Part shown: positions 2,648-52,574 of the stretch, piece by piece | Layout: each line of letters opens with the position of its first letter | How positions within the stretch are numbered: the first letter of the stretch is position 1 | Source: Bacillota bacterium | GTDB taxonomy: Bacteria > Bacillota > SHA-98 > UBA4971 | Assembly: GCA_012841305.1 (NCBI GenBank) | Contig: DUVA01000048.1 | Span: 1 to 55,671 of the forward strand | Direction: 5' to 3' | DNA: 55,671 bases | Notes under the pieces: generated by a model | Told to the model about the DNA's origin: nothing | Databases searched by the model: none | The model's input: only the letters and a program-made list of their open reading frames with translations | Position numbers and translations under genes: made by a program

Positions 2648-2923
2648 GGTATGAGTTCATCAATTTTTGCTGGTTTTCCGAGGTCTTGGGTGGCCCCGCA
2701 CGGTACGTACGCTTTCTGGAACCGGCGATTGCTTATGGTGGAGATCGTTGATTTCTCCCAATAGCGGCCAGGCATCCTGGGTCTTTGTGGTTATGCCGAG
2801 ACTATTTTCACATGGACTGTACCTATCATAAAGCAGGATTATGGCATTACACTGTTTGTCAATGTACAGTCCATATTTACATTTAACTGGGAGAACTCAA
2901 CGGTCTCATGGTGATCTACTTAG
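2648..2923. repeat. Dispersed REPIN/MITE-like element, copy 1
   Basis: 2648-2751 matches reverse complement of 25570-25673 (12 mismatches in 104 bp by hand); 2888-2923 matches rc of 25457-25492; internal inverted repeats 2741-2760 and 2888-2907. Confidence 0.85.
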
Positions 2924-3030
2924 TAAGGCTGCACACCGGTATGTAGCGCACCGGCTGGCAAGTGCGATGATTTGATTTGACGGCCGCTCTCATAATACGC
3001 AGGAAGGAATTGCGTGTAGGAGGGATTTGC

Positions 3031-4512
3031 GTGTCTGGAACTGGAAAGGCTATTAAAGTTGCCTTGGTAGTCCTGGTAACCTTGCTGGCAGGTATTATCA
3101 TATACGGTGCTGTGGTATTCAACCGGCCGGAACTTATGCCCCCAGGGCCATATCATCCTCGAGCATTGGTGTCGCAGTTTAGGGGGTACCGTGTCCACCC
3201 CTGGGTGAAAATCGATCCGACTAAGCAATATACATTGAAGATATGGAGCACTCGTTGGCCTATGTTTCGGGACGGCTACGGATATGACGATCTTATCGAA
3301 GAAGTAATTGACAAATTTCAGGCTGATTACCGGAATGTAGATGTTGAATATGTGCTTTTACCGTTAGATGAAGTCGGAAGGGCAATAGCTGAGGCGGTTG
3401 AAAACGCAACTCCTCCTAACATATGCATAGCTCCGTTCGATCCATCCCTTGTTGACAGTGGATTAGTCGTGCCTATCAACATGTTTATGTGTGACGAACC
3501 AAGAGACGATATTAAGGCTACCCCGGCTACAGACTTCGAACTCTCTTCTTTACAGGCTGTATCCGCAGGCAATCGCCTGTGGGCATGGCCTTCATGGATA
3601 GCAGTGAAATCTTGGGCAGGAAATGCAGCGATCCTGAGAGAGGTGGGCATTGATGTTGAGCGAGTCATGCTTTACGGATGGTCGTATGAAGATATCTTGA
3701 CAATGATAGAGACTCTAAGGGCGCGGGAAGCCGGAGTGCCGGAGCAATACATGACATATGGTCTTGTCCTGGATACAACAGCTACTCATGTCCTTGACAC
3801 ACTTATGGAGGCGACCGGACGAGGGCTTGTGCTATCAGAGGATGGCGACCTTATGTGGCAAGGAGAGGCCATAAGATCCAGCTTGTCTTTTCTTCAGGAT
3901 GTTAACGCAATGAATGGCTTTCCCGAGCCGATCCACATGATGACTGAGAGAATGCTCGAGCTTTTTTGGACAGGTAGGGCAGCTGTGATAGGGCCGGTAG
4001 GCCCTGGTTTTCTAAGACATGTCCGTGAAAGGCAGGATAGGATAACCGCAGGTGGTGTGTTCTCCGGAAAGGAAACGGTCGAGCCTGTACTTCTGCCTGT
4101 GCCTCATCCTACAGGAGGCATGAGCTCTCCATGTATCACTGTGCATGCAGCTGCGGTATTGACATATCCGGGCACAGGCGGGGAAGACACTGCATATCTG
4201 GCTGTCAGGCTTTCGGAAGCCCTGGCCAGAAAAGAGGCCTTGTGGCTTGCAGGCGAGTTGCCTGTGGTGCCTGCCAGAACCAAAGACCGTCAACATGGGT
4301 TTGATCTGGCCACCCGGCCTGACGGCGCCAGCCGGCGTTTTCTTCTGGGCGCCGCGTCATCCGGCCGGATGTACCGCAACCTATCTTCTGAGATGAAGGA
4401 AAAAGAGAAGCTTTTGCGAGAACAAGTAATCAGTCCCATGATGGATCAGTTTTGGAGAGGGGCTTTGAGCCCTGATGAGTTTAAACAACGCCTGCATGAT
4501 GCTGAGAGGTGA
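3031..4512 (+). CDS. Membrane-anchored extracellular solute-binding protein (ABC sugar-type SBP-like)
   Basis: N-terminal TM; 'IDKFQADYRNVDVEY', 'GNRLWAWP', 'LFWTGRAAV' resemble SBP family 1; RBS AGGAGG before GTG 3031. Confidence 0.65.
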   Translation: MSGTGKAIKVALVVLVTLLAGIIIYGAVVFNRPELMPPGPYHPRALVSQFRGYRVHPWVKIDPTKQYTLKIWSTRWPMFRDGYGYDDLIEEVIDKFQADYRNVDVEYVLLPLDEVGRAIAEAVENATPPNICIAPFDPSLVDSGLVVPINMFMCDEPRDDIKATPATDFELSSLQAVSAGNRLWAWPSWIAVKSWAGNAAILREVGIDVERVMLYGWSYEDILTMIETLRAREAGVPEQYMTYGLVLDTTATHVLDTLMEATGRGLVLSEDGDLMWQGEAIRSSLSFLQDVNAMNGFPEPIHMMTERMLELFWTGRAAVIGPVGPGFLRHVRERQDRITAGGVFSGKETVEPVLLPVPHPTGGMSSPCITVHAAAVLTYPGTGGEDTAYLAVRLSEALARKEALWLAGELPVVPARTKDRQHGFDLATRPDGASRRFLLGAASSGRMYRNLSSEMKEKEKLLREQVISPMMDQFWRGALSPDEFKQRLHDAER

Positions 4513-4928
4513 TCGAATTTCGCACACCTAAACCCTGATCTGTGCTCGAAAATAGTACACGTCCTTTGTGAAGACCCCTGCGGTGTCCGGTTTTCGATCA
4601 CGGATTCCGAAAACGTGCTCGAAAATAGCGCACGGTTCTCCAAACTTGTGTTCGAATTTCGATCAGGCACCGTTAGAAATCGCTTAATATGTAGCGTCGT
4701 TCGGGTTTAGTGATCCAAAATCGAACACCAAACCCGGAGGGTGTGCTCGAAAATAGGACACGGCTTCCGGAGAATCACCGATTTTCAGGTGCCCTCCGGC
4801 TTATTCGTGAAAGTGTGTTCGAAAATAGCACACGGCCGTCTACACCGGTGCTCGAATTTCAATCAGGCACCATCAAAAGTCGCTCACTATGTAGAGTTAT
4901 TTGGGTTTGGTGTTCGATAATCGAGCAC
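4509..4928. repeat. Array of ten 19-bp imperfect palindromes (consensus GTGTTCGA-N3-TCGAACAC / GTGCTCGAAAATAGTACAC)
   Basis: Units start at 4509, 4542, 4583, 4615, 4648, 4710, 4743, 4815, 4848, 4910; internal 200-bp-offset duplication (4615-4728 vs 4815-4928). Confidence 0.92.
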
Positions 4929-5041
4929 GTCACTGAGACATGCTGTGAAATATCATATACACAGAATTATTCACACTCCGGACATGCAGTCGAATTCATT
5001 TATATACCGAACTCATTGGCGGATCGATTGCATCGGCCTAC

Positions 5042-5216
5042 TGGGCGAGCCAGTCGCTCACACTCCCCAGTGAGGCCCCAAAATTCGCCGGAATGGCTCT
5101 CCGGAAGAGGCAAGCGATAGCCGGAGGGACACCAAATCCGCCGAAGTGGCTCGGGGAGGGCCACTCAGCGATCGGCCGGCAATCAGATTCGCCTGGGTGG
5201 CTCTCAGGAAGAGCCA
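5042..5216. repeat. Four 19-bp hairpins at an exact 52-bp period (TGGCTCT-N5-AGAGCCA type)
   Basis: TGGGCGAGCCAGTCGCTCA 5042, TGGCTCTCCGGAAGAGGCA 5094, GTGGCTCGGGGAGGGCCAC 5146, TGGCTCTCAGGAAGAGCCA 5198; last three preceded by similar AxATxCGCC. Confidence 0.75.
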
Positions 5217-5388
5217 TGCTCGACGAAGAGACCCTGTAAGGGGCCCCTCCCTATATGCTTTTCATAGATGGACAAAGCTCCCATCCAATCTGACGGCTAT
5301 AACCAGAGTGCCAGCTGGAACGCATATCCAGGGATAAGGGCGTTTGCGGAATTCGTGCAATGTACCGGCAGTAATGCATCGGCAGAGG

Positions 5389-5417
5389 TTGACAGTTGAG
5401 GTATGATATGTTAAAAC
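5389..5417 (+). promoter_or_regulatory. SigA-type promoter upstream of yabE-like gene
   Basis: TTGACA-N17-TAAAAC with TG before -10. Confidence 0.5.
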
Positions 5418-5557
5418 CTATCCTACGAGACAAAACACGAATTAGGATATGTCAACCGTAACACCTTTATCCAGCTTTGAATAAATTAGGTGACTACATG
5501 CCGATAATGATGTATAGTAGAGAACATCTGGTATAGGATTCCAGTTCCGGCTCTAAA

Positions 5558-5584
5558 GAAGGAGTTTAGGATTTTTGGCCGAAT
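5558..5584 (+). promoter_or_regulatory. SigH-type promoter
   Basis: GAAGGAGTT-N11-GCCGAAT matches the RNAGGAWWW-N11/12-RNNGAAT consensus. Confidence 0.55.
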
Positions 5585-5673
5585 AATATGGCCAAAAGAC
5601 CTGGTGCCGGATGAGTGCCGGAATTGATATCAAGAAAAGCAGGGTTATTATACACTGCAAGGAGGATGGGATC

Positions 5674-6705
5674 ATGACGTCCAGCCCCTGTTATAGGCAG
5701 GAGCGAGCGTCGGTATTTGTCGAACGCAGAAGAGAAATCGCTCTTGTTTCATGTTGCGTGGTGCTCTTAGTGACTGGGCTTGCAGGAGCAGCGCGGGAAA
5801 TAAGAATAATTGTTGATAATGAGGTTATAGCGGTTGCCGCGGCCCCTGCTCTTAGGGTGGGAGATGTCCTGAAACAGGCCGGGGTGGAATTACAAGACGG
5901 CGATAAAGTGACACCTCAAATATCAGAGCGTGTACGTGGGAGAGGTGTCATCACTGTTACCCGTGCAGTTCCTGTAGAGCTTACAGTAGACGGCTCGAAA
6001 GTTGGGCTCCGTTCAACAGGTCCGATGGTTAAACATGTTCTGGCTGAGTCCGGAATCCTGCTGAGGCCTGAGGACAAGGTCAGTCCGGGAATGGAAGCCG
6101 GACTTACTCCCGGTATGAACATCAAAGTGACTCGAGTGACATCTGAGGTGGTCGTGCGACAGGTCCGTATCCCGTATCGCACTGAGGAAAGACCTGATTC
6201 AGGTATGGATCGCGGTGAATCTAAGGTTATCAAGCAGGGAATCGAAGGCCTTCGTGAAGAGGAAGTTCGTGTGACCTATGAGGATGGCAGAGTCGTCAAT
6301 GAGACTGTGCTGTCCAGCAGAGTATTGCGGGAAGCAGTCTCAAGAGTGGTGAGAGTAGGCACTCGCAATCCAATCAGAACCTTGCTTACTTCAAGAGGTA
6401 CCTTTAGGTACCGGGAAGTCAAAACCATGACAGCCACTGCTTATGAGCCGGGCCCTACCAGTTGCGGAAAGTGGGCGGACGGCTATACAGCTATCGGCCT
6501 GAAGGCCGTCCCCGGCATTGCTGCCGTAGATCCAAAGGTCATACCTCTTCGCACTAAGCTGTATGTGGAGGGTTATGGACCTGCAATCGCAGGTGATGTG
6601 GGAGGCGCTATCAAAGGCAACAGAATCGACTTGCTCTTTGAGACTGTAGAGGAGGCACTACGGTACGGAAGACGGAAGGTGAAAGTTTATATTCTGGAGC
6701 CATGA
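5674..6705 (+). CDS. yabE: YabE-like protein (DUF348 repeats, G5 domain, 3D domain)
   Basis: DUF348-type repeats, G5 (GESKVIKQGIEG...VVRVGT), 3D (MTATAY...AAVDPKVIPL...DVGGAIKGNRIDL); sits before rsmA. Confidence 0.9.
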   Translation: MTSSPCYRQERASVFVERRREIALVSCCVVLLVTGLAGAAREIRIIVDNEVIAVAAAPALRVGDVLKQAGVELQDGDKVTPQISERVRGRGVITVTRAVPVELTVDGSKVGLRSTGPMVKHVLAESGILLRPEDKVSPGMEAGLTPGMNIKVTRVTSEVVVRQVRIPYRTEERPDSGMDRGESKVIKQGIEGLREEEVRVTYEDGRVVNETVLSSRVLREAVSRVVRVGTRNPIRTLLTSRGTFRYREVKTMTATAYEPGPTSCGKWADGYTAIGLKAVPGIAAVDPKVIPLRTKLYVEGYGPAIAGDVGGAIKGNRIDLLFETVEEALRYGRRKVKVYILEP

Positions 6706-7607
6706 AAAAGCAAATAACGAATATGAGTAAAGAATCTAAAATTCGGCCGAGGAAACACCTCGGCCAGAATTTTCTTATCGACCGCTCCATTTTGGAAGTC
6801 ATTGTTAATGCTGCCAAGTTAACCAAGGATGATTTGGTTTTAGAGATTGGTGCAGGCACCGGGACGCTGACTGAGGCGCTTTCAAGGGACGCCGGTCATG
6901 TCGTTGCTGTTGAAATAGATGAGAGATTGGTTTCCCTGCTTCGACAAAAGTTCTTTCAATATCCCGATGTAGAGATTGTAAAAGGGGACTTTCTGCAGCT
7001 AAACTTGACAGAGCTAACCGCTTCTAGTACACTGATTTCAGAGAAATCTAAAGTGGTTGCCAATTTGCCTTACTATATTACGTCTCCTATTATTTTGGAA
7101 TTATTTCGTCATGCCGAGCTTTTCGAACGATTGGTGGTTCTGGTTCAGAAGGAAGTCGCAGAGCGAATTGTCGCAGCTCCGGGCTCCAAGAGGTACGGAG
7201 CATTTTCCGTAGCTGTGCAGTATCACGCGGATCCGGAGATTATGGCAATCGTGCCTCCTGAGGCGTTTTGGCCTCAACCCAAAGTGGACTCTGCTGTGGT
7301 CAAGATGATGATTCGCGAAGCCCCCCGGGTAAAAACAGTTGATGAGGGAATCTTCTTTGCGGTAGTCAGAGGCGGTTTTGCAAAAAGGCGAAAGACAATT
7401 CTGAGAGCGCTTTCCATGGCGGGAAAGACCTATCCGGAGCTTGCGTCCGTCAAGGAGGATAGCATAAGGAGGATCCTTGCCGAGGTTGGCGTGGATTCAG
7501 AGAGAAGAGCTGAGACTCTATCATTAGAGGAGTTCGGCAGAATAGCAGACGCAATCGCATTGGAACGTGGTGAACTTAGTCAGGGTGAGAAACATGATGT
7601 TCATTAG
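6702..7607 (+). CDS. rsmA: 16S rRNA dimethyladenosine transferase KsgA/RsmA
   Basis: KHLGQNFL, VLEIGAGTG, VVANLPYYIT, QKEVAERI, PKVDS, RRAETLS. Confidence 0.97.
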   Translation: MKKQITNMSKESKIRPRKHLGQNFLIDRSILEVIVNAAKLTKDDLVLEIGAGTGTLTEALSRDAGHVVAVEIDERLVSLLRQKFFQYPDVEIVKGDFLQLNLTELTASSTLISEKSKVVANLPYYITSPIILELFRHAELFERLVVLVQKEVAERIVAAPGSKRYGAFSVAVQYHADPEIMAIVPPEAFWPQPKVDSAVVKMMIREAPRVKTVDEGIFFAVVRGGFAKRRKTILRALSMAGKTYPELASVKEDSIRRILAEVGVDSERRAETLSLEEFGRIADAIALERGELSQGEKHDVH

Positions 7608-12014: not shown

Positions 12015-12069
12015 GTGTAAGATCCTACGCTTGCCTTCTAAGTTTGTGATATTCGAGGGGGATAAGCTT

Positions 12070-14043
12070 ATGGCATATGCATCTCATAGGTGTTGTTCTG
12101 ATGTAACTCATAGATCCTGTTCCGAGATGACTCTTACGTTGCCTATTCCGGCAATCAAGATAAAGGAGATCCGTGCTCACGTTGACAGCGTTACGACACA
12201 TGTAATTCCAGGTAAGGTGATAGTCCAAGGGACGCTTCAGAAGCAAGTGTTCTTTGTAGGGGAAGACAACATTGTCCATCACTTCCCTGAACAAGCGCGT
12301 TTCTCGGCTTTGATTGAGATACCCGCGGTTGTGCCGGGCCCTGAGGTGGTGGTGCAGGCTCATCCTAGGGTATTCAATATTATTGCTACCTTGAGCCCTG
12401 ACGGCACTCAAATAACGCAAAAGGTCATTATCGATGTGGACGTGACCGTCACCCAGTTTGCTCAGGTGCCCCTTGAGGAAGACCCTGAGGGGCCCAGTGT
12501 CCTGACAGAAGAAGTGATAGGAGAAGACACAGGCCAGATTCTTGAATCAGGGACTGTGACTTTGGTTACGCCTGCAGTCAAGGTAACTGACATCCGCGTA
12601 AATCCTGAGATTACTCAGGTTACGGTAAAAGAAGACAAAGTAGTGGTCCAAGGGAATATTCTAAAACAGATCTTCTTCATTGATCTTGATCAGGTAGGCC
12701 GCCATCAAGCTGTCGTGGTACCGTTCGCGATAATGATAGATATCCCCGGCGCACAGCCGGGCATGAATGTCCAGGCGCGTGCTACTGTAGCAGACGTGAA
12801 TTTCACCTTGGATCCGACAGGCGCTTTTGTCAGTCAGGAAGTGGTCCTTGACGTATTCGCAAAGGTCACTCAGACCGTTGAGGTATCACTGGCGTTAGGC
12901 GACGACTTGACTATCAAGACTGAGCAGGTAATTGCCTCTGCTTCAACTCAGATAATGGAAGAAGTCACTGTTGTTTTGGCGCAACCCGCCATCAAGATCA
13001 AGGACATAGAGCTGGTTGTACAGGATGCCAGAGGCCGTACAATTGCAGATAAAGTCATCATACAGGGCGTCTTCGTAAAAGACGTGTATTACATTAACGA
13101 AGACGATGTGGAGGTCCTGGAGTCCTTCACTATTCCCTTCAGCACTTTCATACCGGCACCAGGGGTTACGCCCGGGCTTAACGTTTTTGTCCTCGCACAG
13201 GCTTTACCGGTAGTATTTGATCCTTCGCAGACCGGAACGGAGATAACAGAGAAGGATCTTGCAGAGATTGAGGCCATCATTACAGAGACAGTGAAAATCG
13301 AAGTTGAAGAGGATCCCACCGGTACCCTGTTCAAGGTCCAGAAAGTGATCGGAGAAGGTACAGCACAGGTTTGCGCTGAAGGAATACCCGTGCCTGTGCT
13401 TCCCATTACCATAGAATTTGAAAGAATACGTGTGGGAGAGGCGGTAGAGGCTGAGAAGCAGCTGCTCGTAGAGAACTCAATTTGCCTGCCGTTCATCGCC
13501 AAAAAGATCAAGTCAGTAGAATCCACGGTTCAGAATGTGACCTTTGAGATCGTTGGGGAGCAGGTTCTTGTTGAAGGTGAAGTCAAAAAGGACGTATTTG
13601 TGGTCGGGCTTGATAACATAGTCCACCATATCCAAGAGATCGTCCCATTCAGCGGGTTTGTCGATGTGCCCGGAATTGTGGAAGGCGCAACAGTTACTGT
13701 GGATGTAGTAGTGGAGAGCCTTGTTCAGAACCTCATCTGTGGGGGAAGCAAGATTCAGCAACTGATAGTCTTACTTGTTACTGTCACATCAGCCGAAGAG
13801 AGAATCGTTCAAGTGGTGGTAAACGTGACAGGCCCCGGTGTTTTCCAAACCAAGACAAAGGTCCTTGTCGATGTTGTCGATGATGGTAACCCGAACCCTG
13901 TGCCGCTTGATGTGGTTACAGATCTTACCGGGCCCAACGTAGACACAGTTACGAAAGAGACGCTTCTCCTCGTAGTAATTGTGAACGGGACTGTTGGCCC
14001 TGTGCCTGTGTCTGTAGTAACGAACGCTACATTTAAGATTTAG
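12070..14043 (+). CDS. DUF3794/SPOCS spore coat protein, four repeats
   Basis: Four 'A.KI...KVIVQG.L.KQ.F...PF...I..PG' repeats; Val-rich; RBS GAGGGGG before ATG 12070. Confidence 0.88.
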   Translation: MAYASHRCCSDVTHRSCSEMTLTLPIPAIKIKEIRAHVDSVTTHVIPGKVIVQGTLQKQVFFVGEDNIVHHFPEQARFSALIEIPAVVPGPEVVVQAHPRVFNIIATLSPDGTQITQKVIIDVDVTVTQFAQVPLEEDPEGPSVLTEEVIGEDTGQILESGTVTLVTPAVKVTDIRVNPEITQVTVKEDKVVVQGNILKQIFFIDLDQVGRHQAVVVPFAIMIDIPGAQPGMNVQARATVADVNFTLDPTGAFVSQEVVLDVFAKVTQTVEVSLALGDDLTIKTEQVIASASTQIMEEVTVVLAQPAIKIKDIELVVQDARGRTIADKVIIQGVFVKDVYYINEDDVEVLESFTIPFSTFIPAPGVTPGLNVFVLAQALPVVFDPSQTGTEITEKDLAEIEAIITETVKIEVEEDPTGTLFKVQKVIGEGTAQVCAEGIPVPVLPITIEFERIRVGEAVEAEKQLLVENSICLPFIAKKIKSVESTVQNVTFEIVGEQVLVEGEVKKDVFVVGLDNIVHHIQEIVPFSGFVDVPGIVEGATVTVDVVVESLVQNLICGGSKIQQLIVLLVTVTSAEERIVQVVVNVTGPGVFQTKTKVLVDVVDDGNPNPVPLDVVTDLTGPNVDTVTKETLLLVVIVNGTVGPVPVSVVTNATFKI

Positions 14044-14123
14044 TCTGGGCTTTAGCGCATCACATTTTTAGGTAGATTTCAATACGATATAGGGAAGAAA
14101 GGCTCAGAGGGGGACTGACCGAT

Positions 14124-16202
14124 ATGTTCATAGGGCTATGGCAATCAGGCGTAATTGTGGCTGCTATTGCCCTTGTCCTCCTGGGACTTTTGCTGATACC
14201 GCGTCGCAGGCGCATGGTTGAAACACTTCTTGGCGTCGATTATCCTGATGATGACAATGGCCTAGAACTATCATTAGGGCACAGCAATCCTCAGCCGGCA
14301 TTAGCACAACATATAGGTGAAGTAGCTTTTGCGGTTGACTGCGACCTTTTGGAGGACGGCGGAGGGGCGGAGGTCAACCAAGAGACAGTATGCTCCGAAG
14401 CTGTCCAGGCCAAAAGGAATCTCATGCTGCGTGCCCCTGGTTCGTGGCATGCCGGAAATGCCACACCTGCACCCACATGCACTTCTGAACCGGCGATCAC
14501 AATCACATTCCAACCTTCTTCAAGCGAAATTCACATGGATCTGCCCAGCGAAATAACTCTCAGGGCGGAATCTTTCGATAGTCTAGGCCAGATTATGTGC
14601 TGTCAGAGTGAATCTAACTTTTTGCCGGAAGCTCCCTGTACTTCGTCAGAAGATCATGACGACGCCAGGTTAGGGTTTCTGTATCCTATCTCTCATGATC
14701 GGGAAGAGGATGCAGAGGAACAAGAACATGTACCTGTCCAACATCAGTCTCAGGCGACAGAGGGCCCAAGGGAGGCGCGACCCGTATTTCTTAATCGTTT
14801 GATGGAAAGCCCATTCAGGCTTAGGGAAGGAGGCTCGCATATGCTGAATATCGAGAAGTACAGTCAGGTTCAAACAGCGTGTCTTAAGGTGGAAAGGGTT
14901 GTAGGCCATGGTTCAAAGCAGGTCCTTTTGGAGGAGACAAACACTATACCCGGGATCAAGATAGTGGAAATCATTCCTACGCTCATCAATATTCGTTCCA
15001 TAGTAAAGGACGGCAAAGTCATTATCCAAGGCACTGTCCACAAGCAGATATTCTACATTGGTACTGACGAACTGGAACATCACCTTGCAGAGGATATGGA
15101 TTTCAGTGAGCTTGTTGATATCGAGCCGTTGAATCCTATGTGTCCGGTGCGAGAAGGCATGAATCAGCAGGACTTCTCTGTAATTGAGAACAGCGTGTTT
15201 GAGTTTGACCCGGATACCGGCGCTTTGACGCAGAAGATCATCCTTAGATTGTGTGTGAAGGTAACTGAAACAGAACAACTTGAGGTGGGGGTTGGTTGTC
15301 AGGGCACGCTGATCAAGGCTGCTGTTGTAGTCGGTGAAGGCACAAAGCAGAAGTTCATTGAGGAGACGAAAGTCATTCCTGCAATTAAGGTCATTGAAAT
15401 CGTCCCACGAATATCTCAGATCAGGCACACAGTCAAGAACGGAAAAGTCCTGGTCCAAGGTATCGTTCATAAGCAGATATTCTACGTAGGTACAGACGAC
15501 CTAGTTCATCACCTGGCAGAAGACATTCCATTCAGTGATCTTGTGATAGTGCCATACGCATGTGAGGGAATGAACTCTCAAGACCATTCCTTCGTAGATA
15601 ACCTTGTGTTTGAATTCGACCCTGCTACCGGTGCTCTCACTCAAAAGATTATCCTTGCCCTGTCCGTGAAGGTTACGGAGACATGCGGGGTGCCGGTGAT
15701 TGAAGGAACCGCGGGAACGCTTATCAGCGCTAACCAAATCATTGGGATGGGATGCGCCGAGAAGCTGGTTGAGGAGACAAAGACCCTGACAGCCATTAAA
15801 ATCGTAGATATCGATGCCAGGATCAGTGAAATAACGTCCATAGTCAAGAACGGCAAAGTCATAGTGCAAGGGACTGTCCACAAGCAGATATTCTATGTCG
15901 GTACAGACGACCTTGTCCATCATCTTGCAGAGGATCTGCCTTTTAGCGAAATGATAGAGATACCCCCGATAAATCCGGAATTCCCTGTGGAGGAAGGCAT
16001 GGATCAACAGGATCACTCATTTATTGAGAATATCGTATGGGAATTCGACCCTGCCACAGGCGAGCTTACGGAGAAGGTTATCATCGGCATACAGGTAGTA
16101 GTGACGAATCATATTCAAATACCGGTAGTGGTCATTGGCGGCTGTCCCGGCAACGACCTTTGGCCGATCAAGGAGGGTTGTCCAGCCGATACCGTCAAGT
16201 AA
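14124..16202 (+). CDS. DUF3794/SPOCS protein, three repeats, with N-terminal TM and disordered extension; alternative start at 14841
   Basis: Three near-identical KVI.QGTVHKQIFY.GTD.L.HHLAED repeats; RBS before both 14124 and 14841. Confidence 0.85.
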   Translation: MFIGLWQSGVIVAAIALVLLGLLLIPRRRRMVETLLGVDYPDDDNGLELSLGHSNPQPALAQHIGEVAFAVDCDLLEDGGGAEVNQETVCSEAVQAKRNLMLRAPGSWHAGNATPAPTCTSEPAITITFQPSSSEIHMDLPSEITLRAESFDSLGQIMCCQSESNFLPEAPCTSSEDHDDARLGFLYPISHDREEDAEEQEHVPVQHQSQATEGPREARPVFLNRLMESPFRLREGGSHMLNIEKYSQVQTACLKVERVVGHGSKQVLLEETNTIPGIKIVEIIPTLINIRSIVKDGKVIIQGTVHKQIFYIGTDELEHHLAEDMDFSELVDIEPLNPMCPVREGMNQQDFSVIENSVFEFDPDTGALTQKIILRLCVKVTETEQLEVGVGCQGTLIKAAVVVGEGTKQKFIEETKVIPAIKVIEIVPRISQIRHTVKNGKVLVQGIVHKQIFYVGTDDLVHHLAEDIPFSDLVIVPYACEGMNSQDHSFVDNLVFEFDPATGALTQKIILALSVKVTETCGVPVIEGTAGTLISANQIIGMGCAEKLVEETKTLTAIKIVDIDARISEITSIVKNGKVIVQGTVHKQIFYVGTDDLVHHLAEDLPFSEMIEIPPINPEFPVEEGMDQQDHSFIENIVWEFDPATGELTEKVIIGIQVVVTNHIQIPVVVIGGCPGNDLWPIKEGCPADTVK

Positions 16203-16254
16203 GCACATGAGGCTTCGTCCTGGATGACTCCTTAGTACTGGTGCCAGCCTACAG

Positions 16255-16287
16255 GGGGATTGCCGGTGATTTCATCCGGCAGTCCCC
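16255..16287 (+). terminator. Hairpin terminator
   Basis: GGGGATTGCCGG/CCGGCAGTCCCC. Confidence 0.6.
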
Positions 16288-16324
16288 GAATTAATGCCCT
16301 CCTTTTCTCCTCGGACACCAATTC

Positions 16325-16978
16325 ATGACAGAATACCGGAAAACTCCTGTGAATAGGGATTCAGTACAGTGGGCCATACATACTTTGCGGCAGCCGGATA
16401 GGAGAAGAGAGGTGCACATTTTGGGCTGTCTTACAATAGAGAGCCGAGAAGTGCAGATCGAACAAGTCATAACTCGTTTCACTCATAGTGCATCCATAAG
16501 AGCTTCACATGTAGTAGAAGATCTATCCAGGCAACAACCCTTCGGGATTACCATCGACTTACTATCTCTGTCATGGGAAATCCTAGATGGCTCTGCCATT
16601 GCCTCTTTGGATCTTTCAATATGGGTCTACTTACCGTGTGATGGTGAAATTCAGGCAGTGTCCTTGATTCATAAGATGCGAACACTTATAAGAATCCCGG
16701 AAATCAGCTCTTCCATGCGCATAGAGGCCAAATTTCGTGTTGAAGACATTGAAGTGGCTCCTGATGAAATAGACGGTGAAATGGTTATTGAAGCTGTCGC
16801 TTTCATTGAAGGGCTTGTCCTTGAGAAGCGTATTCTCCACGTTGTGACCGGGGTTATGTTGGAACGAGATACTTGCCGGGTCTCAGAGGACGAAGGATTT
16901 CCAGCCCGATTTCGCTTCCTGGCCACCATAGGCAACCTGTTCAACCAGATCGCGGGTGTCCTCCGAAGGAATCGTTAG
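16325..16978 (+). CDS. Hypothetical protein, possibly one divergent SPOCS-like domain
   Basis: 217-aa ORF inside the coat cluster; beta-strand pattern and 'LHVVTGV' ending like SPOCS linkers; start uncertain. Confidence 0.5.
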   Translation: MTEYRKTPVNRDSVQWAIHTLRQPDRRREVHILGCLTIESREVQIEQVITRFTHSASIRASHVVEDLSRQQPFGITIDLLSLSWEILDGSAIASLDLSIWVYLPCDGEIQAVSLIHKMRTLIRIPEISSSMRIEAKFRVEDIEVAPDEIDGEMVIEAVAFIEGLVLEKRILHVVTGVMLERDTCRVSEDEGFPARFRFLATIGNLFNQIAGVLRRNR

Positions 16979-17092
16979 CTTGCCGTGGGTGACAATGACG
17001 AAAACGTCACAAACCTGTTGGCCCAGGCATACAATAAATTCGCAAGGTACGGGAATCTGTCTTCATTCACCTGCATGGAGGACGTTCTTGCC

Positions 17093-18487
17093 ATGGCATC
17101 ATCTCAAAGGGAGATCCTTTGGAAAAGAACCCTGAGACCCGATATGAAAGGCCAGGATGTGGCAGCGCTTCAACGACGTTTGGCTGAGCTCCGTTACTAT
17201 ACAGGGGCATGTGACGGAGTGTATGGCCTTCTTACAAAGGGCGCTGTATTTGACTTTCAGAAAGCCCACAGGTTAAGGGTTGACGGTATTGCAGGCAAGG
17301 AAGTCTTCAGTCTTCTTAAGTCGGGGCTTGAGCGAGAAAAGATTGAGCACATAGTTACGAAAGGCGAGACCCTTGCCGGCATTGCCGGTAAACATAAAGT
17401 CCCTCAAGAATTGCTTGTCACGGCAAATTCCTTAAGGACGGAGAAAGTTGAAGAAGGCGACAGTCTGATGATTCCTGTATTGCGCCTTTTCGGATTCTGC
17501 TCCCCTCCGGTTCCCGGAGAGCCCGTATGTTCCCACGAATACGTGTTACCATTCCTTACGGCAATTGCGCCTCGATGGTTCTTTGTTGATGAGCATGGGG
17601 ATATTCAAGGCGCGCCCGACAGGAGGCTTGCTGCTTTGGCACAGATGACAGGTGTAGAGCTATGGCCTGTAGTAAGTATCGCAAGACCCGGACCCCGCGA
17701 GGAAGGAGTCGAGATCCGAGACCCTCTTGATAACGTGCTCTCAGACAGCTTAGCTTATTCCAAGGCAATAAAAGGTTTATCGGCTCTTGCGACTCGAATG
17801 CGAACTAAAGGATTCATCATTTCTGCAGGAACTATTCATGAAAAAGACGTCTATGCATTTCAATCCTTCCTCCGCAAGATTCGGAACGCCCTCAAGCAAG
17901 AGGGGCTTATGCTGGCAGTTGAAGTTCCTTTGCCTGAGGATGCCGTATCCTGTCAGGGACAGGATCGTAGAAAAGGCATACAGGATTTAGAGGGTATTGC
18001 GTCCGTTGTTCACCTGGTCTTTCTCAAGGCGTATAAAGATCCGTGGGAGTTTACATCTCCCGAACCCATAGTATCTATTAACCGTTGCAGAACTGCATTG
18101 AAAAGCCTTGCCCGAGCACTGGATTTCTGGAAAACGATAGTTGTCATGCCTGCTTTCGGTGTCGACTTCTCTTCAGGCCTTGGCACAACTCCCCTTCGAA
18201 AGAGGCATCGGGAGATCATGGAGATAATGGAGCTCTTCAAACCTACGGTGTCACAGCCTGACGGGGAAAAGTCTAAAGTTTTCAGGTACAGATCATTTCG
18301 TGTCAGTCATACTGTGTATTTCGAGGATGCAGAGAGCATTGGCACCTATGCAGATCTGGCGCAAAGATATGGCGTAGCCGGCATTGCCATTGCCGATTTG
18401 GAGGATGTGGATCCATGGGTTTGGTCTACGCTCAAGGCCAGGTTCAAGGTGGTAAAGGATGGAGGTGGGGATCGGGGTTTCAAGTAG
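17093..18487 (+). CDS. PG-binding + LysM + degenerate GH18 (YaaH/SleL-like) protein
   Basis: GQDVAALQRRL..DG.YG; HIVTKGETL LysM; VYFEDAES...YGVAGIA GH18 C-terminus; DxDxE motif absent. Confidence 0.8.
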   Translation: MASSQREILWKRTLRPDMKGQDVAALQRRLAELRYYTGACDGVYGLLTKGAVFDFQKAHRLRVDGIAGKEVFSLLKSGLEREKIEHIVTKGETLAGIAGKHKVPQELLVTANSLRTEKVEEGDSLMIPVLRLFGFCSPPVPGEPVCSHEYVLPFLTAIAPRWFFVDEHGDIQGAPDRRLAALAQMTGVELWPVVSIARPGPREEGVEIRDPLDNVLSDSLAYSKAIKGLSALATRMRTKGFIISAGTIHEKDVYAFQSFLRKIRNALKQEGLMLAVEVPLPEDAVSCQGQDRRKGIQDLEGIASVVHLVFLKAYKDPWEFTSPEPIVSINRCRTALKSLARALDFWKTIVVMPAFGVDFSSGLGTTPLRKRHREIMEIMELFKPTVSQPDGEKSKVFRYRSFRVSHTVYFEDAESIGTYADLAQRYGVAGIAIADLEDVDPWVWSTLKARFKVVKDGGGDRGFK

Positions 18488-18570
18488 ATGCGCTTGGTAT
18501 ATACGGGTCATGTGTCTAGTTCTTGGGCTTTCGCCGTGCGTAAGGCGTAATCTTGTATTTAGAAATATAT

Positions 18571-18601
18571 GCACATTTCGGTAAGTTGCCCGCATATAGT
18601 A
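18571..18601 (+). promoter_or_regulatory. SigK/SigE-like mother-cell promoter
   Basis: GCACA-N17-CATATAGTA. Confidence 0.45.
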
Positions 18602-18656
18602 GAAATGAAAAAGAAGTGTACGGCTCCATGTGTGTAATGGGAAAGGAGGAAAAGAG

Positions 18657-20258
18657 ATGGCTGTGGGTATCGAGCTCAAAGAGGAACTCCTAAAAGTTGA
18701 ACAGGTCATTGGCGAAACCACGGCGCGGAAGGTCCTGCGAGAAGTCATCAAAATAGCAGACACCCTACCTACTGCTGAGAAGATTATCAGTGTGGATGTT
18801 ATCATTCTCACCACGTCTTTTCAGCTGATTAAGAACAAGATCTTAGTTGAAGGGACAGCTAAGGTAAGAATTCTCTACGTAGCTCGGGAGGCTACCGGAG
18901 CGCAGCCGGTTCAGGTATTCGAAGAAGACATATCATTTGAGCTTATCGCTGAAGTGCCTGGGACTGAACCGTTAATGAATGCCTGGGTGCAGGTGGACGT
19001 CCATGATATAGCCTTCGATCTGGTTGACATCAGGACTGTTGATGTACGCGTTGTGATTTCTGCCAGGGTTAAGGTCACTGTAACTGAGCAATTAGAGGTG
19101 GTCACAGAGGTGACCGGGCCCGCGGATTTGCAGGTTACGAGGGAGCTCCTAAAAGTCGAGGATGTAATTGGTGACGCTCAAGCACAGGCTCTTGTAACCG
19201 GTAGGCTCATAGTCCCGTTTGAGAAGCCGGATATAGATTCTGTCATAAGCGTCGAGGCTAAACCGCGCCTCACAGATGTGCAAGTTCTCGACGGCCAGGT
19301 AGTTGTTGAAGGCTTAATAGATGTTGACGTTCTTTACGCTGCAGTGCCCCAGGACCCAACTCCTGAAGGCGTGAAACTGCCGGTTCACTTCTTCTCGAGT
19401 CAATTGCGATTCTCCCAGGTAGTAGAAGTCCCAGGTGCAGCAGTCGGCATGGTTGCCCAGGCCAGAATAATCTTTGAAACAGTCAGCTTTACTGAACTGG
19501 ATTTCCGCACCGTAACTGTGGACGTAGTCCTGAAAATCGTTGCCAAAGTAACTATTGTCAGGCAACTGGAAATTGTCACAGATGTGACTTCTGCCAGTGA
19601 AGTCCTTGACGTAGAAAAGCGTCTCCTTAGAGTAGAAGATGTTATAGGGGAAGACATAGCTCAGACCATTATCAAAGAAGTCCTGGAGGTGCCAAGAGAG
19701 AAGCCCAATATTGAACGTATCCTCCGCATTGATACTTCAGTGAAGGAAACATCGTGGAGGATCATTGACGGCAAGGTAATCATTGAAGGAGTTATAGAAC
19801 TCCAAACTCTTTACGTGGCGCAAACACCTGAAGGAGACCAGCCTGTACATCATATGTCCCATCGGGTGAAGTTCACTCTTTTCGTGGAGATACCAGGCAC
19901 ACAAGAGGGCTTCACTGCAGAAACTCGCGTAGCCGTCGAACATGTCGACTTTGAGCTTGTTGAAGACAGACGGTTCACTGCTAAAGTGCTTGTCGGCGTA
20001 TTCGCGAAAGTGACTGAGCCGGTGCAACTTAATGTAGTCGTCAATGTAGTTGTTGTTTCACCTGCTCCGCCAGCGCCATGCCCACAGCCTACCATTGTCA
20101 TGGTGACGATTCAGCCGGGTGATACTCTCTGGGCGTTGGCCAGGAAGTATAATACGACAGTCGAAGCGATTATTCAGGCGAACCCCGGGATACAGCCGGA
20201 GAACCTCCAGGTGGGCCAGGTAATACAGATCCCTGCCTGCCCTGCTCCTAAGGGGTGA
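18657..20258 (+). CDS. sipL: SipL-like spore coat morphogenetic protein (3x SPOCS + LysM)
   Basis: Three DUF3794 repeats plus C-terminal LysM (IQPGDTLWALARKYNTTVEAI); strong RBS AAGGAGG. Confidence 0.85.
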   Translation: MAVGIELKEELLKVEQVIGETTARKVLREVIKIADTLPTAEKIISVDVIILTTSFQLIKNKILVEGTAKVRILYVAREATGAQPVQVFEEDISFELIAEVPGTEPLMNAWVQVDVHDIAFDLVDIRTVDVRVVISARVKVTVTEQLEVVTEVTGPADLQVTRELLKVEDVIGDAQAQALVTGRLIVPFEKPDIDSVISVEAKPRLTDVQVLDGQVVVEGLIDVDVLYAAVPQDPTPEGVKLPVHFFSSQLRFSQVVEVPGAAVGMVAQARIIFETVSFTELDFRTVTVDVVLKIVAKVTIVRQLEIVTDVTSASEVLDVEKRLLRVEDVIGEDIAQTIIKEVLEVPREKPNIERILRIDTSVKETSWRIIDGKVIIEGVIELQTLYVAQTPEGDQPVHHMSHRVKFTLFVEIPGTQEGFTAETRVAVEHVDFELVEDRRFTAKVLVGVFAKVTEPVQLNVVVNVVVVSPAPPAPCPQPTIVMVTIQPGDTLWALARKYNTTVEAIIQANPGIQPENLQVGQVIQIPACPAPKG

Positions 20259-20338
20259 GGATCGGCCTGCAAGAAGGAGTGGGTTTGAGGTTTGGCGTGG
20301 AGTTCTCAAGGATGGTTTGAAAGGGAGGGAAATAGGAG

Positions 20339-21754: not shown

Positions 21755-21787
21755 AGCTGTCAGTAGGCTACTTTCATCGTGTTCGAC

Positions 21788-21822
21788 AAGCGACCCTGTT
21801 TGCGCCAAATGCGGGGTCGCTT
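21788..21822. terminator. Bidirectional terminator
   Basis: AAGCGACCCTG/CGGGGTCGCTT between convergent genes. Confidence 0.65.
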
Positions 21823-22775: not shown

Positions 22776-22789
22776 TTAAGACTTACAGG

Positions 22790-23700: not shown

Positions 23701-23737
23701 TTCTGGTAGATGTGTTACCAGAGAGGGAGGGAGGGAG

Positions 23738-41459: not shown

Positions 41460-41984
41460 TTTGATGCCTCCATCTCTCTCGTATTTTTTCTATGCTTATC
41501 ATTCGCCTGATACCCTAAACCTATTATGTCGTTGATCTGCTCCATCATCAAGTTCACACCGATGAAGCTGACAACTATGTGAAATTCTCAACCAAAGGTG
41601 TTGCCGAGCCCACAACCAAGACTGTCAACCAGGATTGTCGACTACGGTCGCCAAGTCTACACCGATGCGAGATTGCCAACCAAGATTAGCCAATGAACTG
41701 TGGACATTACAAATTCTCCGTAGAGTTGTAGAATCCTTCTGAGATACGTGTTTTCTTAGCCTGTCTGGTGTGCGCGAATACTTGTCACCTTCTTTTCGTC
41801 GGCTGCCAGAATATCTACGAATACCTGACACGTCTTTGCTGAACGTGGTCGAATCCCTCGAACCATCCAAACGCTCGTCGGTGGTTGAAACTCAGGCACG
41901 TTTTCTGTTGGCCTTCCTGCGATGGCAGGATGGCTGCCATCTAATATTTACCAGCAAGCGAAAAGGCGCATCTTCGCAGGGAGG

Positions 41985-42445
41985 GTGTTCGAAAATAGAA
42001 CACGGTTTCTAGAAAATCCCCAGCGACGGCCGAATGACATTCCATATTTTGGAGAATAAGTTGAAAAAGCTTGAATCCCCCGGGCAAGGTGATCGAATTT
42101 CGAACACCCCAACCCTGATCTGTGTTCGAAAATAGCGCACGTCTTTCCTAGAGACCCCTGGGGTGTCCGGTTTTCGATCACGAATTCCGAACTCGTGTTC
42201 GAGAATAGTACACGGTTCTCCGAACCTGTGTTCGGATTTCGAACAGGCGCTGTCAGAAGTCGCTCATTATGTAGAGTCATTTGGGTTTGGTGATCGAAAA
42301 TCGAACACCAAACCCAGAAGGTGTGCTCGAAAATAGTACACTGCTTCCAGAAAATCATTGATTTTCAGGCACCCTCCGGCTTATTTGTGAAAGTGTGCTC
42401 GAAAATAGTACACGCTCTCCAAAAGCATGTTCGAAAATCGAACAC
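41985..42445. repeat. Second copy of the GTGTTCGA-N3-TCGAACAC palindrome array
   Basis: Units at 41985, 42089, 42122, 42163, 42195, 42228, 42290, 42323, 42395, 42427; 42089-42413 aligns ungapped to 4509-4833 (47 mismatches in 325 bp by hand). Confidence 0.93.
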
Positions 42446-42601
42446 CTCGGCGAGACAAGCAAGCAGGTGGAAGGAAGTCAGATACTCCTATACATAGGTC
42501 GTCGGTAAAGATCAATGATCGGCAAATTCAGTTTATCGCATTTCCACTGACGAGCTCCTAGGTGGGGGCTATTTGACGCTCACAGTTTAGTGATTCGTGA
42601 A

Positions 42602-42673
42602 GATCAGTAATACGGGATCAGTAATATGGGATCTGTAATATGGGATCTGTAATGTGGGATGTCAGTAATGTGG
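42602..42673. repeat. 14-bp tandem repeat x5 (GATCWGTAATRYGG)
   Basis: GATCAGTAATACGG GATCAGTAATATGG GATCTGTAATATGG GATCTGTAATGTGG GATGTCAGTAATGTGG. Confidence 0.9.
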
Positions 42674-42675
42674 GA

Positions 42676-52121: not shown

Positions 52122-52574
52122 GTGGTCGATTTCCAACCACTTTTTTCAAGACGTTGCTTCAATTTCTACCACCTAATGGGATTGTTGGAATAAAAAATGC
52201 ATAAGTGATAGGTTCTCGACCACCTCCAACGGCAACGGTGGTTGTTTTTCGACCACATCTTTGGGCTAATGAAGGATTTCAATGCCTCTTTGAGGCGCAG
52301 GTGGAAGGTTTTCTACCACTTTTTTGGAAAAGGTGGCAGTTTTTCGCTCACCTTTTTGAAAAATGTGGTTGATTTTGTATCCACGATCCTTATGTGAAGG
52401 GGTTCTCTGTGATGAGGTGGTCTATATCCTACCACCTTGACGCTTGGGCCTGGTCGATAACCGACCACTAACAAGCCTCGACGTGGTCGATTATCAACCA
52501 CTCAGGCGATCCCTCTCGAAAAAGTGGTAGAAAATCATACAGCAAAAGAGAATTTGTGGTCGTTTTACGACCAC
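52122..52574. repeat. Array of about twelve 19-bp palindromes (consensus GTGGTCGA-N3-TCGACCAC)
   Basis: Units at 52122, 52154, 52205, 52238, 52301, 52333, 52365, 52417, 52450, 52483, 52524, 52556. Confidence 0.88.

What the first reader, a model, noticed from the sequence alone, without database searches (positions are those of the whole stretch)
4509..4928. Palindrome array A with modular internal duplication
Ten units are spaced 33, 41, 32, 33, 62, 33, 72, 33, 62. Two subtypes tend to alternate: asymmetric ..AAATAGTACAC and more symmetric ..TCGAACAC. Block 4615-4728 recurs exactly 200 bp later. Unit 4710 has an extended stem (GGGTTT..AAACCC). The array appears to grow by duplicating phased modules.
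Basis: seen in the sequence. Interest (0 to 1): 0.75.

Follow-up and report, generated by a model that had tools for sequence, protein, structure and literature searches.

The report
Dispersed arrays of helically phased palindromes
The palindrome array is real, but it is one copy of a non-coding repeat scattered between genes in one genus of uncultured biogas-reactor bacteria, built from 19-bp symmetric boxes spaced whole turns of the DNA helix apart, which most likely dock an unidentified DNA-binding protein.

Summary
The ten units and their spacing are confirmed. The 200-bp repeat exists but is 77% identical, not exact.

Array A is not a private structure. Its core, 4507-4834, has 9 other near-full copies at 83-91% identity in this genome. 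About 80 clusters hold 447 boxes. A close relative lacks 4483-5457, so the block is an insertion.

The boxes occur in 5 of 8 genomes of the genus and at chance level in 53 others.

Spacings are quantised: 93% of 365 lie within 0.15 turn of a multiple of 10.5 bp. Over 97 distinct linker classes the Rayleigh R is 0.73 at 10.4-10.5 bp.

Between species, box cores keep 87% identity and linkers 49%.

Boxes fold weakly. No RAYT, Ssn nuclease, recurrent neighbour gene, Rfam match or orientation bias was found.

Best reading: a BIME/NIME-like mosaic repeat whose boxes are same-face docking sites for an unknown dimeric protein.

This scan noted similar phased arrays in other phyla (unchecked).

The parts
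4483..5457 (+). Inserted non-coding mosaic block holding array A and further repeat modules. It is absent from a close relative. It replaced the last 9 codons of the upstream 511-aa ORF.
   Evidence: In relative L001, window 4482 joins directly to window 5458. The displaced original ORF end with its stop survives at 5458-5486.
4507..4834 (+). Core dispersed element ('family A'), with eight intact boxes and one decayed box.
   Evidence: 9 other copies of 320 nt or more at 83-91% identity in the same genome, including window 42087-42414; a copy at 84% identity in another species of the genus.
4509..4928 (+). Array A as reported. Ten 19-bp boxes GTGnTCGAnnnTnGnnCAC start at 4509, 4542, 4583, 4615, 4648, 4710, 4743, 4815, 4848 and 4910.
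4774..4792 (.). Decayed box inside the 72-bp gap (31 + 41 bp). It aligns to an intact box in another species. In this genome it forms a different small palindrome, CACC-N8-GGTG.
   Evidence: alignment, read.
4609..4728 (+). First copy of the internal 120-nt direct repeat.
   Evidence: family D1.
4809..4928 (+). Second copy of the internal direct repeat: offset 200 bp, 77% identity.
   Evidence: family D1.
41841..42675 (+). Second inserted mosaic block. It holds array B (boxes from 41985 to 42445), which is 85% identical to array A over 300 nt. It ends one base before the -35 hexamer of a 12/12 consensus promoter.
   Evidence: The block is absent from another species of the genus, with the junction resolved to 1 nt.
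52122..52574 (+). Array C, a copy of a second family ('family C', about 452 bp, 12 boxes of the related form GTGG-N11-CCAC). The element begins and ends in a box.
   Evidence: 25 copies in this genome. 17 of the 25 alignments to other copies start at 52123.

Best explanation
Array A is one copy of a genus-restricted family of non-coding mosaic repeats that sit between genes.

The elements are strings of a 19-bp box with dyad symmetry. Family A boxes read GTGnTCGAnnnTnGnnCAC and family C boxes read GTGG-N11-CCAC. The boxes are joined by linkers whose lengths put box centres a whole number of helical turns apart: 32/33, 41, 51/52, 62, 72-74, 83 and 103 bp.

Shown here:
- The elements are dispersed.
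- Their presence varies between relatives.
- They have no conserved reading frame.
- Their boxes and spacing are kept while linkers drift.

Inferred: the boxes act on double-stranded DNA as docking sites for a sequence-specific dimeric protein. That protein would sit on one face of the helix and bind cooperatively or bend the DNA, in the manner of iteron, centromere or Lrp-type site arrays.

Open: whether the protein serves the element (spread, recombination between boxes) or the host (nucleoid organisation). The protein itself is not identified.
For: Dispersal:
- 163 exact strand-matches of the box lie on 40 of 278 contigs.
- With up to 1 mismatch there are 402 hits against 11 in a shuffled genome.
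- 80 clusters hold 447 boxes.
- All 67 clusters of 3 or more boxes lie between long ORFs or overlap only short ORFs of about 100-200 aa.

Insertion:
- Empty sites in relatives exist for the blocks around arrays A and B.

Phasing:
- Spacings fall in sharp peaks.
- 93% of 365 spacings of 130 bp or less are within 0.15 turn of a multiple of 10.5 bp, against 30% expected if spacings were uniform.
- After collapsing linkers into 97 distinct sequence classes, the Rayleigh R peaks at 0.73 at 10.4-10.5 bp with phase about 0.
- Four other species give R of 0.77-0.85.

Selection on boxes and spacing:
- Comparing this genome's family A consensus with that of another species, box-core positions are 97/111 identical (87%), box-variable positions 28/40 (70%) and linkers 93/189 (49%), Fisher p = 8e-12. 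The alignment is almost gapless.
- Five family C copies at positions shared with a well-assembled species, two of them with both flanking genes matching, give box core 293/372 (79%) against linker 908/1320 (69%), p = 2e-4.

Against a hairpin or RNA role:
- Mean DNA hairpin energy is -0.6 kcal/mol for 79 asymmetric boxes and -3.2 for 159 symmetric ones.
- Both strands fold equally well.
- There is no Rfam match.
- There is no orientation bias: the upstream gene is on the same strand in 11 cases and the opposite strand in 11; the downstream gene in 7 and 10.
Against: No binding protein was found.
- No gene recurs next to the arrays. Among 93 neighbours in this genome and 222 ORFs around 20 copies in another species, the only shared paralogs are ABC-transporter ATPases and permeases.
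- No multi-copy transposase is present in this 89%-complete, 278-contig assembly.

Copies are related by descent, so counts of spacings are not independent. The collapse into 97 linker classes reduces this but does not remove it. Long spacings can also be sums of short ones.

The cross-species alignments are anchored on the boxes, which inflates the box-versus-linker contrast. In the cleaner test on copies at shared positions the contrast is modest (79% against 69%).

Conservation of boxes could reflect needs of the element's own spread rather than a host function.
Confidence: 0.55

Rival explanations
1. These are REP/BIME-type or Ssn/NTS-type elements. The boxes would act as single-stranded DNA hairpins, recognised and spread by a single-copy domesticated enzyme: a RAYT Y1 transposase or a small GIY-YIG Ssn nuclease.
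For: The general look is the same: short palindromes in intergenic arrays, in both orientations, in mosaic clusters, limited to one clade. BIMEs are described as regularly spaced REPs that bind several proteins (PMC2817692, start of abstract in the listing). Ssn genes pair with clade-specific hairpin repeats (PMC11893778, passages).
Against: Y1_Tnp (PF01797) is found in 3 of 8 genomes of the genus, and the pattern is the wrong one. It is intact only in the genome with no boxes. It is a broken IS605-type copy next to a tnpB-like ORF in this genome and a short C-terminal match in a 73-aa frame in one other. It is not found in five genomes that carry arrays (two of them carry only family C copies), one of which is a 10-contig assembly.

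The only GIY-YIG match in this genome lies in a 647-aa frame. By its size and the N-terminal position of the domain I read this as UvrC; that is my inference and was not tested.

Hairpin energies are weak, and the conserved asymmetric subtype barely pairs. I saw no GTAG or CGTC tag next to the boxes. Helical phasing has no role in a single-strand mechanism.
Confidence: 0.08
2. This is a classical MITE. A cut-down insertion sequence would be moved in trans by a DDE transposase that binds the terminal boxes, the internal boxes being extra transposase sites.
For: Family C has sharp ends that are themselves the palindromic box, so it has built-in terminal inverted repeats. Presence varies between species.
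Against: The two resolved junctions show no target-site duplication; the ambiguity is 1 nt at most. The 14 family C copies show no shared flanks of the TSD type.

The inserted blocks at A and B have different ends and are composites. No parent element with a transposase and no multi-copy ORF was found.

At least two family C copies, with both flanking genes matching, and three more with one flank matching, sit at the same positions in a species whose DNA is only 74-81% identical in the window region compared. That points to long retention rather than turnover.
Confidence: 0.12
3. The repeat is neutral. The phasing and box conservation would be by-products of descent from one ancestral module, of gene conversion between copies, and of alignment anchoring.
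For: Copies within a genome are 75-91% alike, so many spacings are inherited and not independent. The contrast at shared positions is modest.
Against: Two families with unalignable linkers, and 97 distinct linker classes, share the same spacing ladder. Spacing is kept between species in which linkers are only 49% identical, with almost no indels. The best-fitting period is the helical repeat of B-DNA with zero phase, which descent alone does not predict.
Confidence: 0.15
4. The array is a structured non-coding RNA or an RNA-level element: multi-hairpin transcript, terminator, or mRNA stabiliser processed into units.
For: The array folds better than shuffles, z = -5.2. Low-depth fragments of some copies occur in metatranscriptome contigs, which does not show transcription.
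Against: The reverse strand folds equally well, z = -4.9, as any palindrome array must. There is no Rfam family. Array orientation is random with respect to flanking genes. Terminator-like and promoter-like sites are not enriched in 4400-5650. Individual boxes are weak hairpins.
Confidence: 0.05

Closest known systems
BIMEs (clusters of REP palindromes) of enterobacteria and pseudomonads, with REPINs and RAYTs
   Same: Short imperfect palindromes occur in both orientations, in regularly spaced intergenic clusters with a few linker types. Unit number varies. The repeat is clade-specific. BIMEs are known to bind host proteins (PMC2817692, start of abstract seen; the linker types and the IHF/gyrase binding are recalled).
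   Different: No RAYT accompanies the arrays. There is no GTAG/CGTC tag. The boxes are poor hairpins. The strict whole-turn spacing ladder seen here is not, as far as I recall, a described property of BIMEs.
Neisseria intergenic mosaic elements (dRS3 palindromes alternating with RS modules) and the Ssn-NTS pair
   Same: A roughly 20-bp palindrome is present in hundreds of copies and strung between repeated modules in intergenic mosaics. dRS3 is defined as ATTCCC-N8-GGGAAT in PMC11893778 (passages). The NIME architecture itself is recalled.
   Different: The sequence is unrelated. No small GIY-YIG Ssn gene is present. The Neisseria repeat acts as a single-stranded hairpin, whereas the constraint here is on duplex geometry.
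Pneumococcal BOX elements and the BrickBuilt MITE of Porphyromonas
   Same: These are modular non-coding repeats with a variable number of internal modules, always intergenic, species- or genus-limited, with no known mobilising enzyme. For BOX I saw PMC3049150 in the listing only, and the boxA/B/C layout is recalled. For BrickBuilt I read the abstract of PMC4596501.
   Different: BOX and BrickBuilt modules are head-to-tail subunits. They are not symmetric boxes set at whole helical turns.
Iteron and centromere site arrays of plasmids (F sopC, P1 incA/incC) and Lrp-type phased operators (all recalled)
   Same: This is what it works like under the best reading: many copies of one 17-20-bp site, centre-to-centre distances of whole helical turns (often 2 or 3), bound cooperatively by dimers on one face.
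   Different: Those arrays are single loci next to their rep/par or regulated genes. Here there are about 80 loci with unrelated neighbours and no match in plasmid or phage records (array A against plasmids, array C against phages only).

Membership tests
REP/BIME with RAYT | A RAYT (Y1 HUH transposase) gene in genomes that carry the repeats | tested here: not met
   PF01797 is found in 3 of 8 genomes of the genus. It is intact only in the one genome without boxes. It is a decayed IS605-type copy in this genome. It is not found in five array-bearing genomes. The assemblies are 79-96% complete.
REP/BIME with RAYT | Units form stable stem-loops with a GTAG or CGTC tag | tested here: not met
   Mean hairpin energy is -0.6 kcal/mol (79 asymmetric boxes) and -3.2 kcal/mol (159 symmetric boxes). 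No tag is seen beside the boxes. The tag rule comes from the PMC3733652 abstract start.
REP/BIME with RAYT | High-copy intergenic palindromes in regularly spaced mosaic clusters | tested here: met
MITE | Terminal inverted repeats | tested here: met
   Family C starts and ends in the palindromic box. Family A ends are less sharp.
MITE | Target-site duplication | tested here: not met
   The two empty-site junctions show 1 nt of overlap at most. 14 family C copies show none. The mosaic flanks make this test imperfect.
MITE | A parent element with a transposase and the same ends | tested here: inconclusive
   There is no multi-copy ORF and no recurrent neighbour. Insertion sequences often fail to assemble in such genomes.
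Ssn-NTS system | A small single-domain GIY-YIG (cd10448) gene, usually flanked by the repeats | tested here: not met
   The only PF01541 match in this genome is inside a 647-aa frame. cd10448 itself could not be searched.
Known RNA family | A match to an Rfam covariance model | tested here: not met
   Window 3500-6000 at E up to 1 gives only a chance-level hit outside the array, 17.9 bits against a threshold of 100.
Plasmid iteron or centromere array | A single locus next to rep or par genes on a replicon | tested here: not met
   There are about 80 chromosomal loci with unrelated neighbours. There is no plasmid match for array A and no phage match for array C.
Pneumococcal BOX | boxA-boxB(n)-boxC sequence modules | not tested
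   No reference sequence was at hand. The comparison is by architecture only.

The most novel reading that the evidence does not exclude
The boxes are the genomic docking sites of a so far unrecognised sequence-specific chromosome-binding protein. Such arrays, 19-bp dimer sites on one helical face scattered over dozens of intergenic loci, would be a recurrent and undescribed kind of bacterial chromatin element. This scan's earlier unchecked notes report look-alike phased arrays in Kiritimatiellia, a Prevotella-like bacterium and an actinomycete. On this reading the elements spread and persist because the host, or a selfish partner protein, needs the phased lattice. Their retention at the same positions across species with 74-81% DNA identity in the compared region would reflect that need.
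Probability: 0.3. Interest if true: 0.75.

Novelty: new variant of a known kind. Interest (0 to 1): 0.5.

Why it matters
Intergenic palindromic repeats (REP/BIME, NIME, BOX) are old puzzles. For most, neither the mobilising activity nor the cellular role is known.

This family adds a clean quantitative clue. The selected features are the box and the whole-turn spacing, which is duplex geometry, and not hairpin stability. That points to protein lattices on DNA.

If the partner protein were found, it could reveal a new nucleoid-organising or repeat-propagating system in a little-known clade of anaerobic-digester Bacillota.

There is also a practical side. 27 of the 67 larger arrays have no long ORF between them and a contig end. 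The elements therefore appear to break short-read assemblies of these organisms and should be expected in binning and annotation.

Tried and rejected
RNA evidence. Six metatranscriptome runs held 21-33% of the words of window 2900-7600. Three of them plus one DNA run were laid, as contigs only. RNA contigs cover the yabE-like and ksgA genes. Over the array only short, low-depth, mismatched pieces from other copies appear. This says nothing for or against transcription.

Orthologous site of array C. In two other species the gap holds a different gene, so no clean empty site could be read.

Array B site in the closest species. An array is present there, but the record has a run of N, so lengths could not be compared.

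Hidden small gene in family C. No frame is open consistently across 12 copies from 4 species.

Recurrent neighbour genes. The only shared paralogs were ABC-transporter ATPases and permeases, the commonest bacterial paralogs.

Known regulator sites. Resemblances I recalled (Spo0A 0A box, LexA, TnrA/GlnR, CRP/FNR, Zur, NrdR, parS, matS) do not fit the box on inspection. They were not tested further.

Literature. Searches for the two public MAG names printed by the tools found no paper. A search for phased interspersed palindromes found nothing relevant.

Supplements of PMC11893778 (lists of Ssn homologues) were not opened. They could show whether any Bacillota of this clade carry an Ssn.
Full report
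THE OBSERVATION

Window 4509-4928 holds ten 19-bp boxes of the form GTGnTCGAnnnTnGnnCAC. Their start-to-start spacings are 33, 41, 32, 33, 62, 33, 72, 33, 62, exactly as reported.

A consensus search with up to 3 mismatches finds 17 matches in the window against 0.07 expected. None of 100 shuffles comes close.

The 200-bp diagonal exists: 4609-4728 against 4809-4928, gapless, at 77% identity. A second diagonal has offset 201: 4509-4561 against 4710-4762, at 75%. So the internal duplication is real but old, not exact.

The two box subtypes and the GGGTTT/AAACCC extension around box 4710 are in the sequence.

WHERE IT SITS

The window is chromosomal DNA of a spore-forming Bacillota. Pfam finds a YabE-like G5/3D protein, KsgA, the YabG peptidase, six SipL/SPOCS proteins, alanine racemase and others.

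Array A lies between a 511-aa ORF with no Pfam family (2977-4512) and the yabE-like gene (5611-6705).

The assembly holding the window has 278 contigs and 2.48 Mb, and is 89% complete.

Public records that encode close relatives of the window's YabG are titled as uncultured Bacillota/Firmicutes MAGs. Runs holding the stretch are anaerobic-digester and biogas metagenomes.

IT IS A DISPERSED REPEAT, NOT A PRIVATE ARRAY

- The window holds a second array, 41985-42445, that is 85% identical to A over 300 nt.
- It holds a third array, 52122-52574, built of a related box, GTGG-N11-CCAC.
- Genome-wide, the exact box pattern gives 163 strand-matches on 40 of 278 contigs.
- With up to 1 mismatch there are 402 hits against 11 in a shuffled genome. 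At exactly 2 mismatches there are 461 against 170.
- Clustering gives 80 clusters: 2 singles, 11 doublets and 67 with 3-17 boxes. Clusters of two or more boxes hold 447 boxes. Family C copies are often split into two clusters by my scan, so the number of loci is somewhat lower.
- The core of array A, 4507-4834, has 9 other copies of 320 nt or more at 83-91% identity.
- The stretch from 4815 on is co-linear with copies on two other contigs (4815-5112, about 80%).
- Further modules downstream, around 5083-5216 and 5249-5300, recur at roughly ten other loci each.
- Family C has 25 copies in this genome. 17 of the 25 alignments to other copies start at 52123, and most end at 52536 or 52573/4, that is, in the terminal boxes.
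- All 67 larger clusters lie in gaps between long ORFs or overlap only short ORFs of about 100-200 aa.
- 27 of the 67 have no long ORF between them and a contig end, which suggests that they break the assembly.
- In a DNA run, contig depth over array A rises from about 14 to 50-150.

PRESENCE AND ABSENCE

A relative whose DNA is 85-90% identical in the aligned flanks joins window 4482 directly to 5458. In that relative the 511-aa ORF runs on for nine codons to its stop. In the window those nine codons and the stop survive, displaced, at 5458-5486. So the 975-bp block is an insertion here and not a deletion there, and it gave the ORF a new tail.

Another species of the genus joins 41840 to 42676 with 1 nt of ambiguity. 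That insertion ends one base before the -35 hexamer of a 12/12 consensus promoter, TTGACA-16-TATAAT, at 42676-42703.

The two blocks have different ends and show no target-site duplication. They are composites of several repeat families.

Other copies are old. Of 20 family C copies fetched from a 10-contig genome of the genus, two have both flanking genes matching the flanks of an array in this genome (66-89% protein identity), and three more share one flank. That species is 74-81% identical in DNA over the window region compared.

TAXONOMIC RANGE

- Exact boxes: 163 in this genome, then 69, 43, 25 and 18 in four other genomes of the genus, and 0, 0 and 1 in the other three.
- The 53 genomes outside the genus have 0 or 1 each, like the reversed-pattern control.
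- Family C is also found by BLAST in two of the genomes with no or one exact box. It is not found in the most divergent one.
- A two-box pattern scanned over one genome of each of 185,579 species hit 18 stretches. 17 are in four uncultured Bacillota MAG records. One is on a 1.4-kb contig of a MAG labelled Mycobacteriaceae.
- There is no match for array A in plasmid records or for array C in phage records.

THE STRIKING FEATURE: SPACING

Box-to-box distances fall in narrow peaks:

| Spacing (bp) | Count |
|---|---|
| 32/33 | 187 |
| 41/42 | 35 |
| 51/52 | 19 |
| 61-63 | 20 |
| 71-74 | 37 |
| 83/84 | 18 |
| 94-96 | 7 |
| 103-105 | 12 |

Almost nothing lies between the peaks. 93% of the 365 spacings of 130 bp or less lie within 0.15 turn of a multiple of 10.5 bp, where a uniform spread would give 30%.

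Copies share ancestry, so I collapsed the linkers into sequence classes (same length within 2 bp and at least 70% similarity). There are 101 classes, 97 of them at 130 bp or less. For these the mean resultant length peaks at 0.73 for periods of 10.4-10.5 bp with phase about 0. For n = 97 that is a Rayleigh z of about 52.

The same ladder appears in loci fetched from four other species, with R of 0.77-0.85 at 10.4 bp.

Family C read by eye has 12 boxes at 32, 51, 33, 63, 32, 32/33, 51/52, 32/33, 33/34, 40 and 33 bp.

Caveat: long spacings may be sums of short ones across an undetected box. One case is visible. The 72-bp gap of array A is 31 + 41 bp around a decayed box that is intact in another species.

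WHAT IS CONSERVED

Five family A copies from this genome, one from a second species and five from a third align almost without gaps, in the same module order. Comparing the consensus of this genome with that of the third species:

| Position class | Identical | Percent |
|---|---|---|
| Box core | 97/111 | 87% |
| Box variable | 28/40 | 70% |
| Linker | 93/189 | 49% |

Fisher's exact test gives p = 8e-12. This alignment is anchored by the boxes, which favours them.

A cleaner test uses five family C pairs at shared genomic positions. It gives box core 293/372 (79%) against linker 908/1320 (69%), p = 2e-4. Here 'linker' includes degenerate boxes, which dilutes the contrast.

The asymmetric subtype (...AAAATAG-N-ACAC) is conserved as such in at least four species. 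It is therefore not just a decayed palindrome.

WHAT IT IS NOT

RNA. Both strands fold equally well, z = -5.2 and -4.9. Rfam has nothing. Array orientation is unrelated to flanking genes: the upstream gene is on the same strand in 11 cases and the opposite strand in 11, and the downstream gene in 7 and 10. Promoter-like and terminator-like sites are not enriched in 4400-5650.

REP/RAYT. Boxes are weak hairpins, -0.6 kcal/mol for 79 asymmetric and -3.2 for 159 symmetric boxes. Y1_Tnp is intact only in the box-free genome of the genus. It is a broken IS605-type copy next to a tnpB-like ORF here, a short match in one other, and not found in five array-bearing genomes.

Ssn/NTS. A 2025 paper pairs small GIY-YIG nucleases with clade-specific hairpin repeats, including the Neisseria dRS3/NTS (PMC11893778; passages read). 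Here the only GIY-YIG match is inside a 647-aa frame, which I take to be UvrC.

Classical MITE. The ends are palindromic, but there is no target duplication, no parent element, no multi-copy ORF and no recurrent neighbour gene.

Coding. No frame is conserved in family C. The 136-aa ORFs over arrays A and B lie on opposite strands relative to array orientation and have no Pfam family.

HOW IT MOST LIKELY WORKS

Shown: this is a non-coding, dispersed mosaic repeat whose presence varies between relatives, and its symmetric boxes and their whole-turn spacing are kept while linkers drift.

Inferred: symmetric 19-bp sites suit a dimer. Centre distances of 3, 4, 5, 6, 7, 8 and 10 turns put all dimers on one face. 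That is the geometry of cooperative or DNA-bending assemblies such as plasmid iterons, sopC-type centromeres and Lrp-type operators (recalled analogies). Each box also has a central A/T tract in phase with the others, which could add intrinsic curvature (inference, not computed).

Open: whether the protein serves the element or the host. Retention of copies at the same positions between species, together with box conservation, leans slightly towards a role that the host tolerates or uses. The mosaic structure, with breakpoints at boxes, fits recombination between boxes as the way modules are shuffled and duplicated. It is equally what alignment between related modules would show.

COMPARISON AND NOVELTY

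In architecture the closest are BIMEs, Neisseria intergenic mosaic elements, pneumococcal BOX and the BrickBuilt MITE (abstract read). Membership in the REP/RAYT, Ssn-NTS and TSD-type MITE classes fails on tested defining features.

I file it as a new variant of the known kind 'intergenic mosaic palindromic repeats'. It is set apart by strict helical phasing and weak hairpins.

My searches found no paper on these organisms or on phased interspersed palindromes. The library does not hold most subscription journals.

Earlier notes of this scan describe phased palindrome arrays in Kiritimatiellia, a Prevotella-like bacterium and an actinomycete, and nested non-coding mobile elements elsewhere in this same genome. 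These are unchecked leads, not support.

VERDICT

Interest is moderate. This is a well-defined and apparently undescribed repeat family with a clear physical signature, but its partner protein and function remain unknown.

Noticed in passing
window 42602-42676: A 14-bp tandem repeat (GATCAGTAATATGG, 5.2 copies) forms the right end of the inserted block. It abuts the -35 hexamer of a 12/12 consensus promoter at 42676-42703. In the species without the insertion the promoter is intact with other DNA upstream. It looks like an iteron or activator-site array placed next to a promoter.
   Followed up: partly
window 52580-52795: Right after array C come three more short tandem repeats: 14 bp x 4 (52580-52635), 15 bp x 2.7 (52648-52687) and 11 bp x 3.8 (52754-52795). 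One other family C copy has a similar 14-bp repeat flank.
   Followed up: no
window 4929-5457: The rest of the inserted block is made of other repeat families. A stretch around 5083-5216 and a roughly 50-nt module at 5249-5300 each recur at about ten other loci of the genome at 70-90% identity.
   Followed up: partly
window 2977-4512: This 511-aa ORF has no Pfam family. Its last nine codons were replaced by the insertion, and the original end is still readable at 5458-5486.
   Followed up: partly
window 12031-25435: Six genes in a row region encode SipL/SPOCS-domain proteins, several with LysM domains, with internal DNA repeats among them. This is an unusually large paralogous set of spore-coat-assembly-type proteins.
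   Followed up: no
G000 contig C157, 35720-36072 (locus L017): A decayed IS200/IS605-type element. Its Y1 transposase frame is interrupted by a stop, and a tnpB-like ORF follows it. It is not near any box array.
   Followed up: partly
locus L061: One two-box match lies on a 1,438-bp contig of a MAG labelled Mycobacteriaceae. It is the only hit outside the Bacillota records, and is probably a mis-binned contig.
   Followed up: no
G000 contigs C17, C67, C206: Ribosomal-protein operon ORFs occur twice, matching at 70% identity or more, on different contigs. This is in line with the 3.8% contamination or strain mixture reported for the assembly.
   Followed up: no
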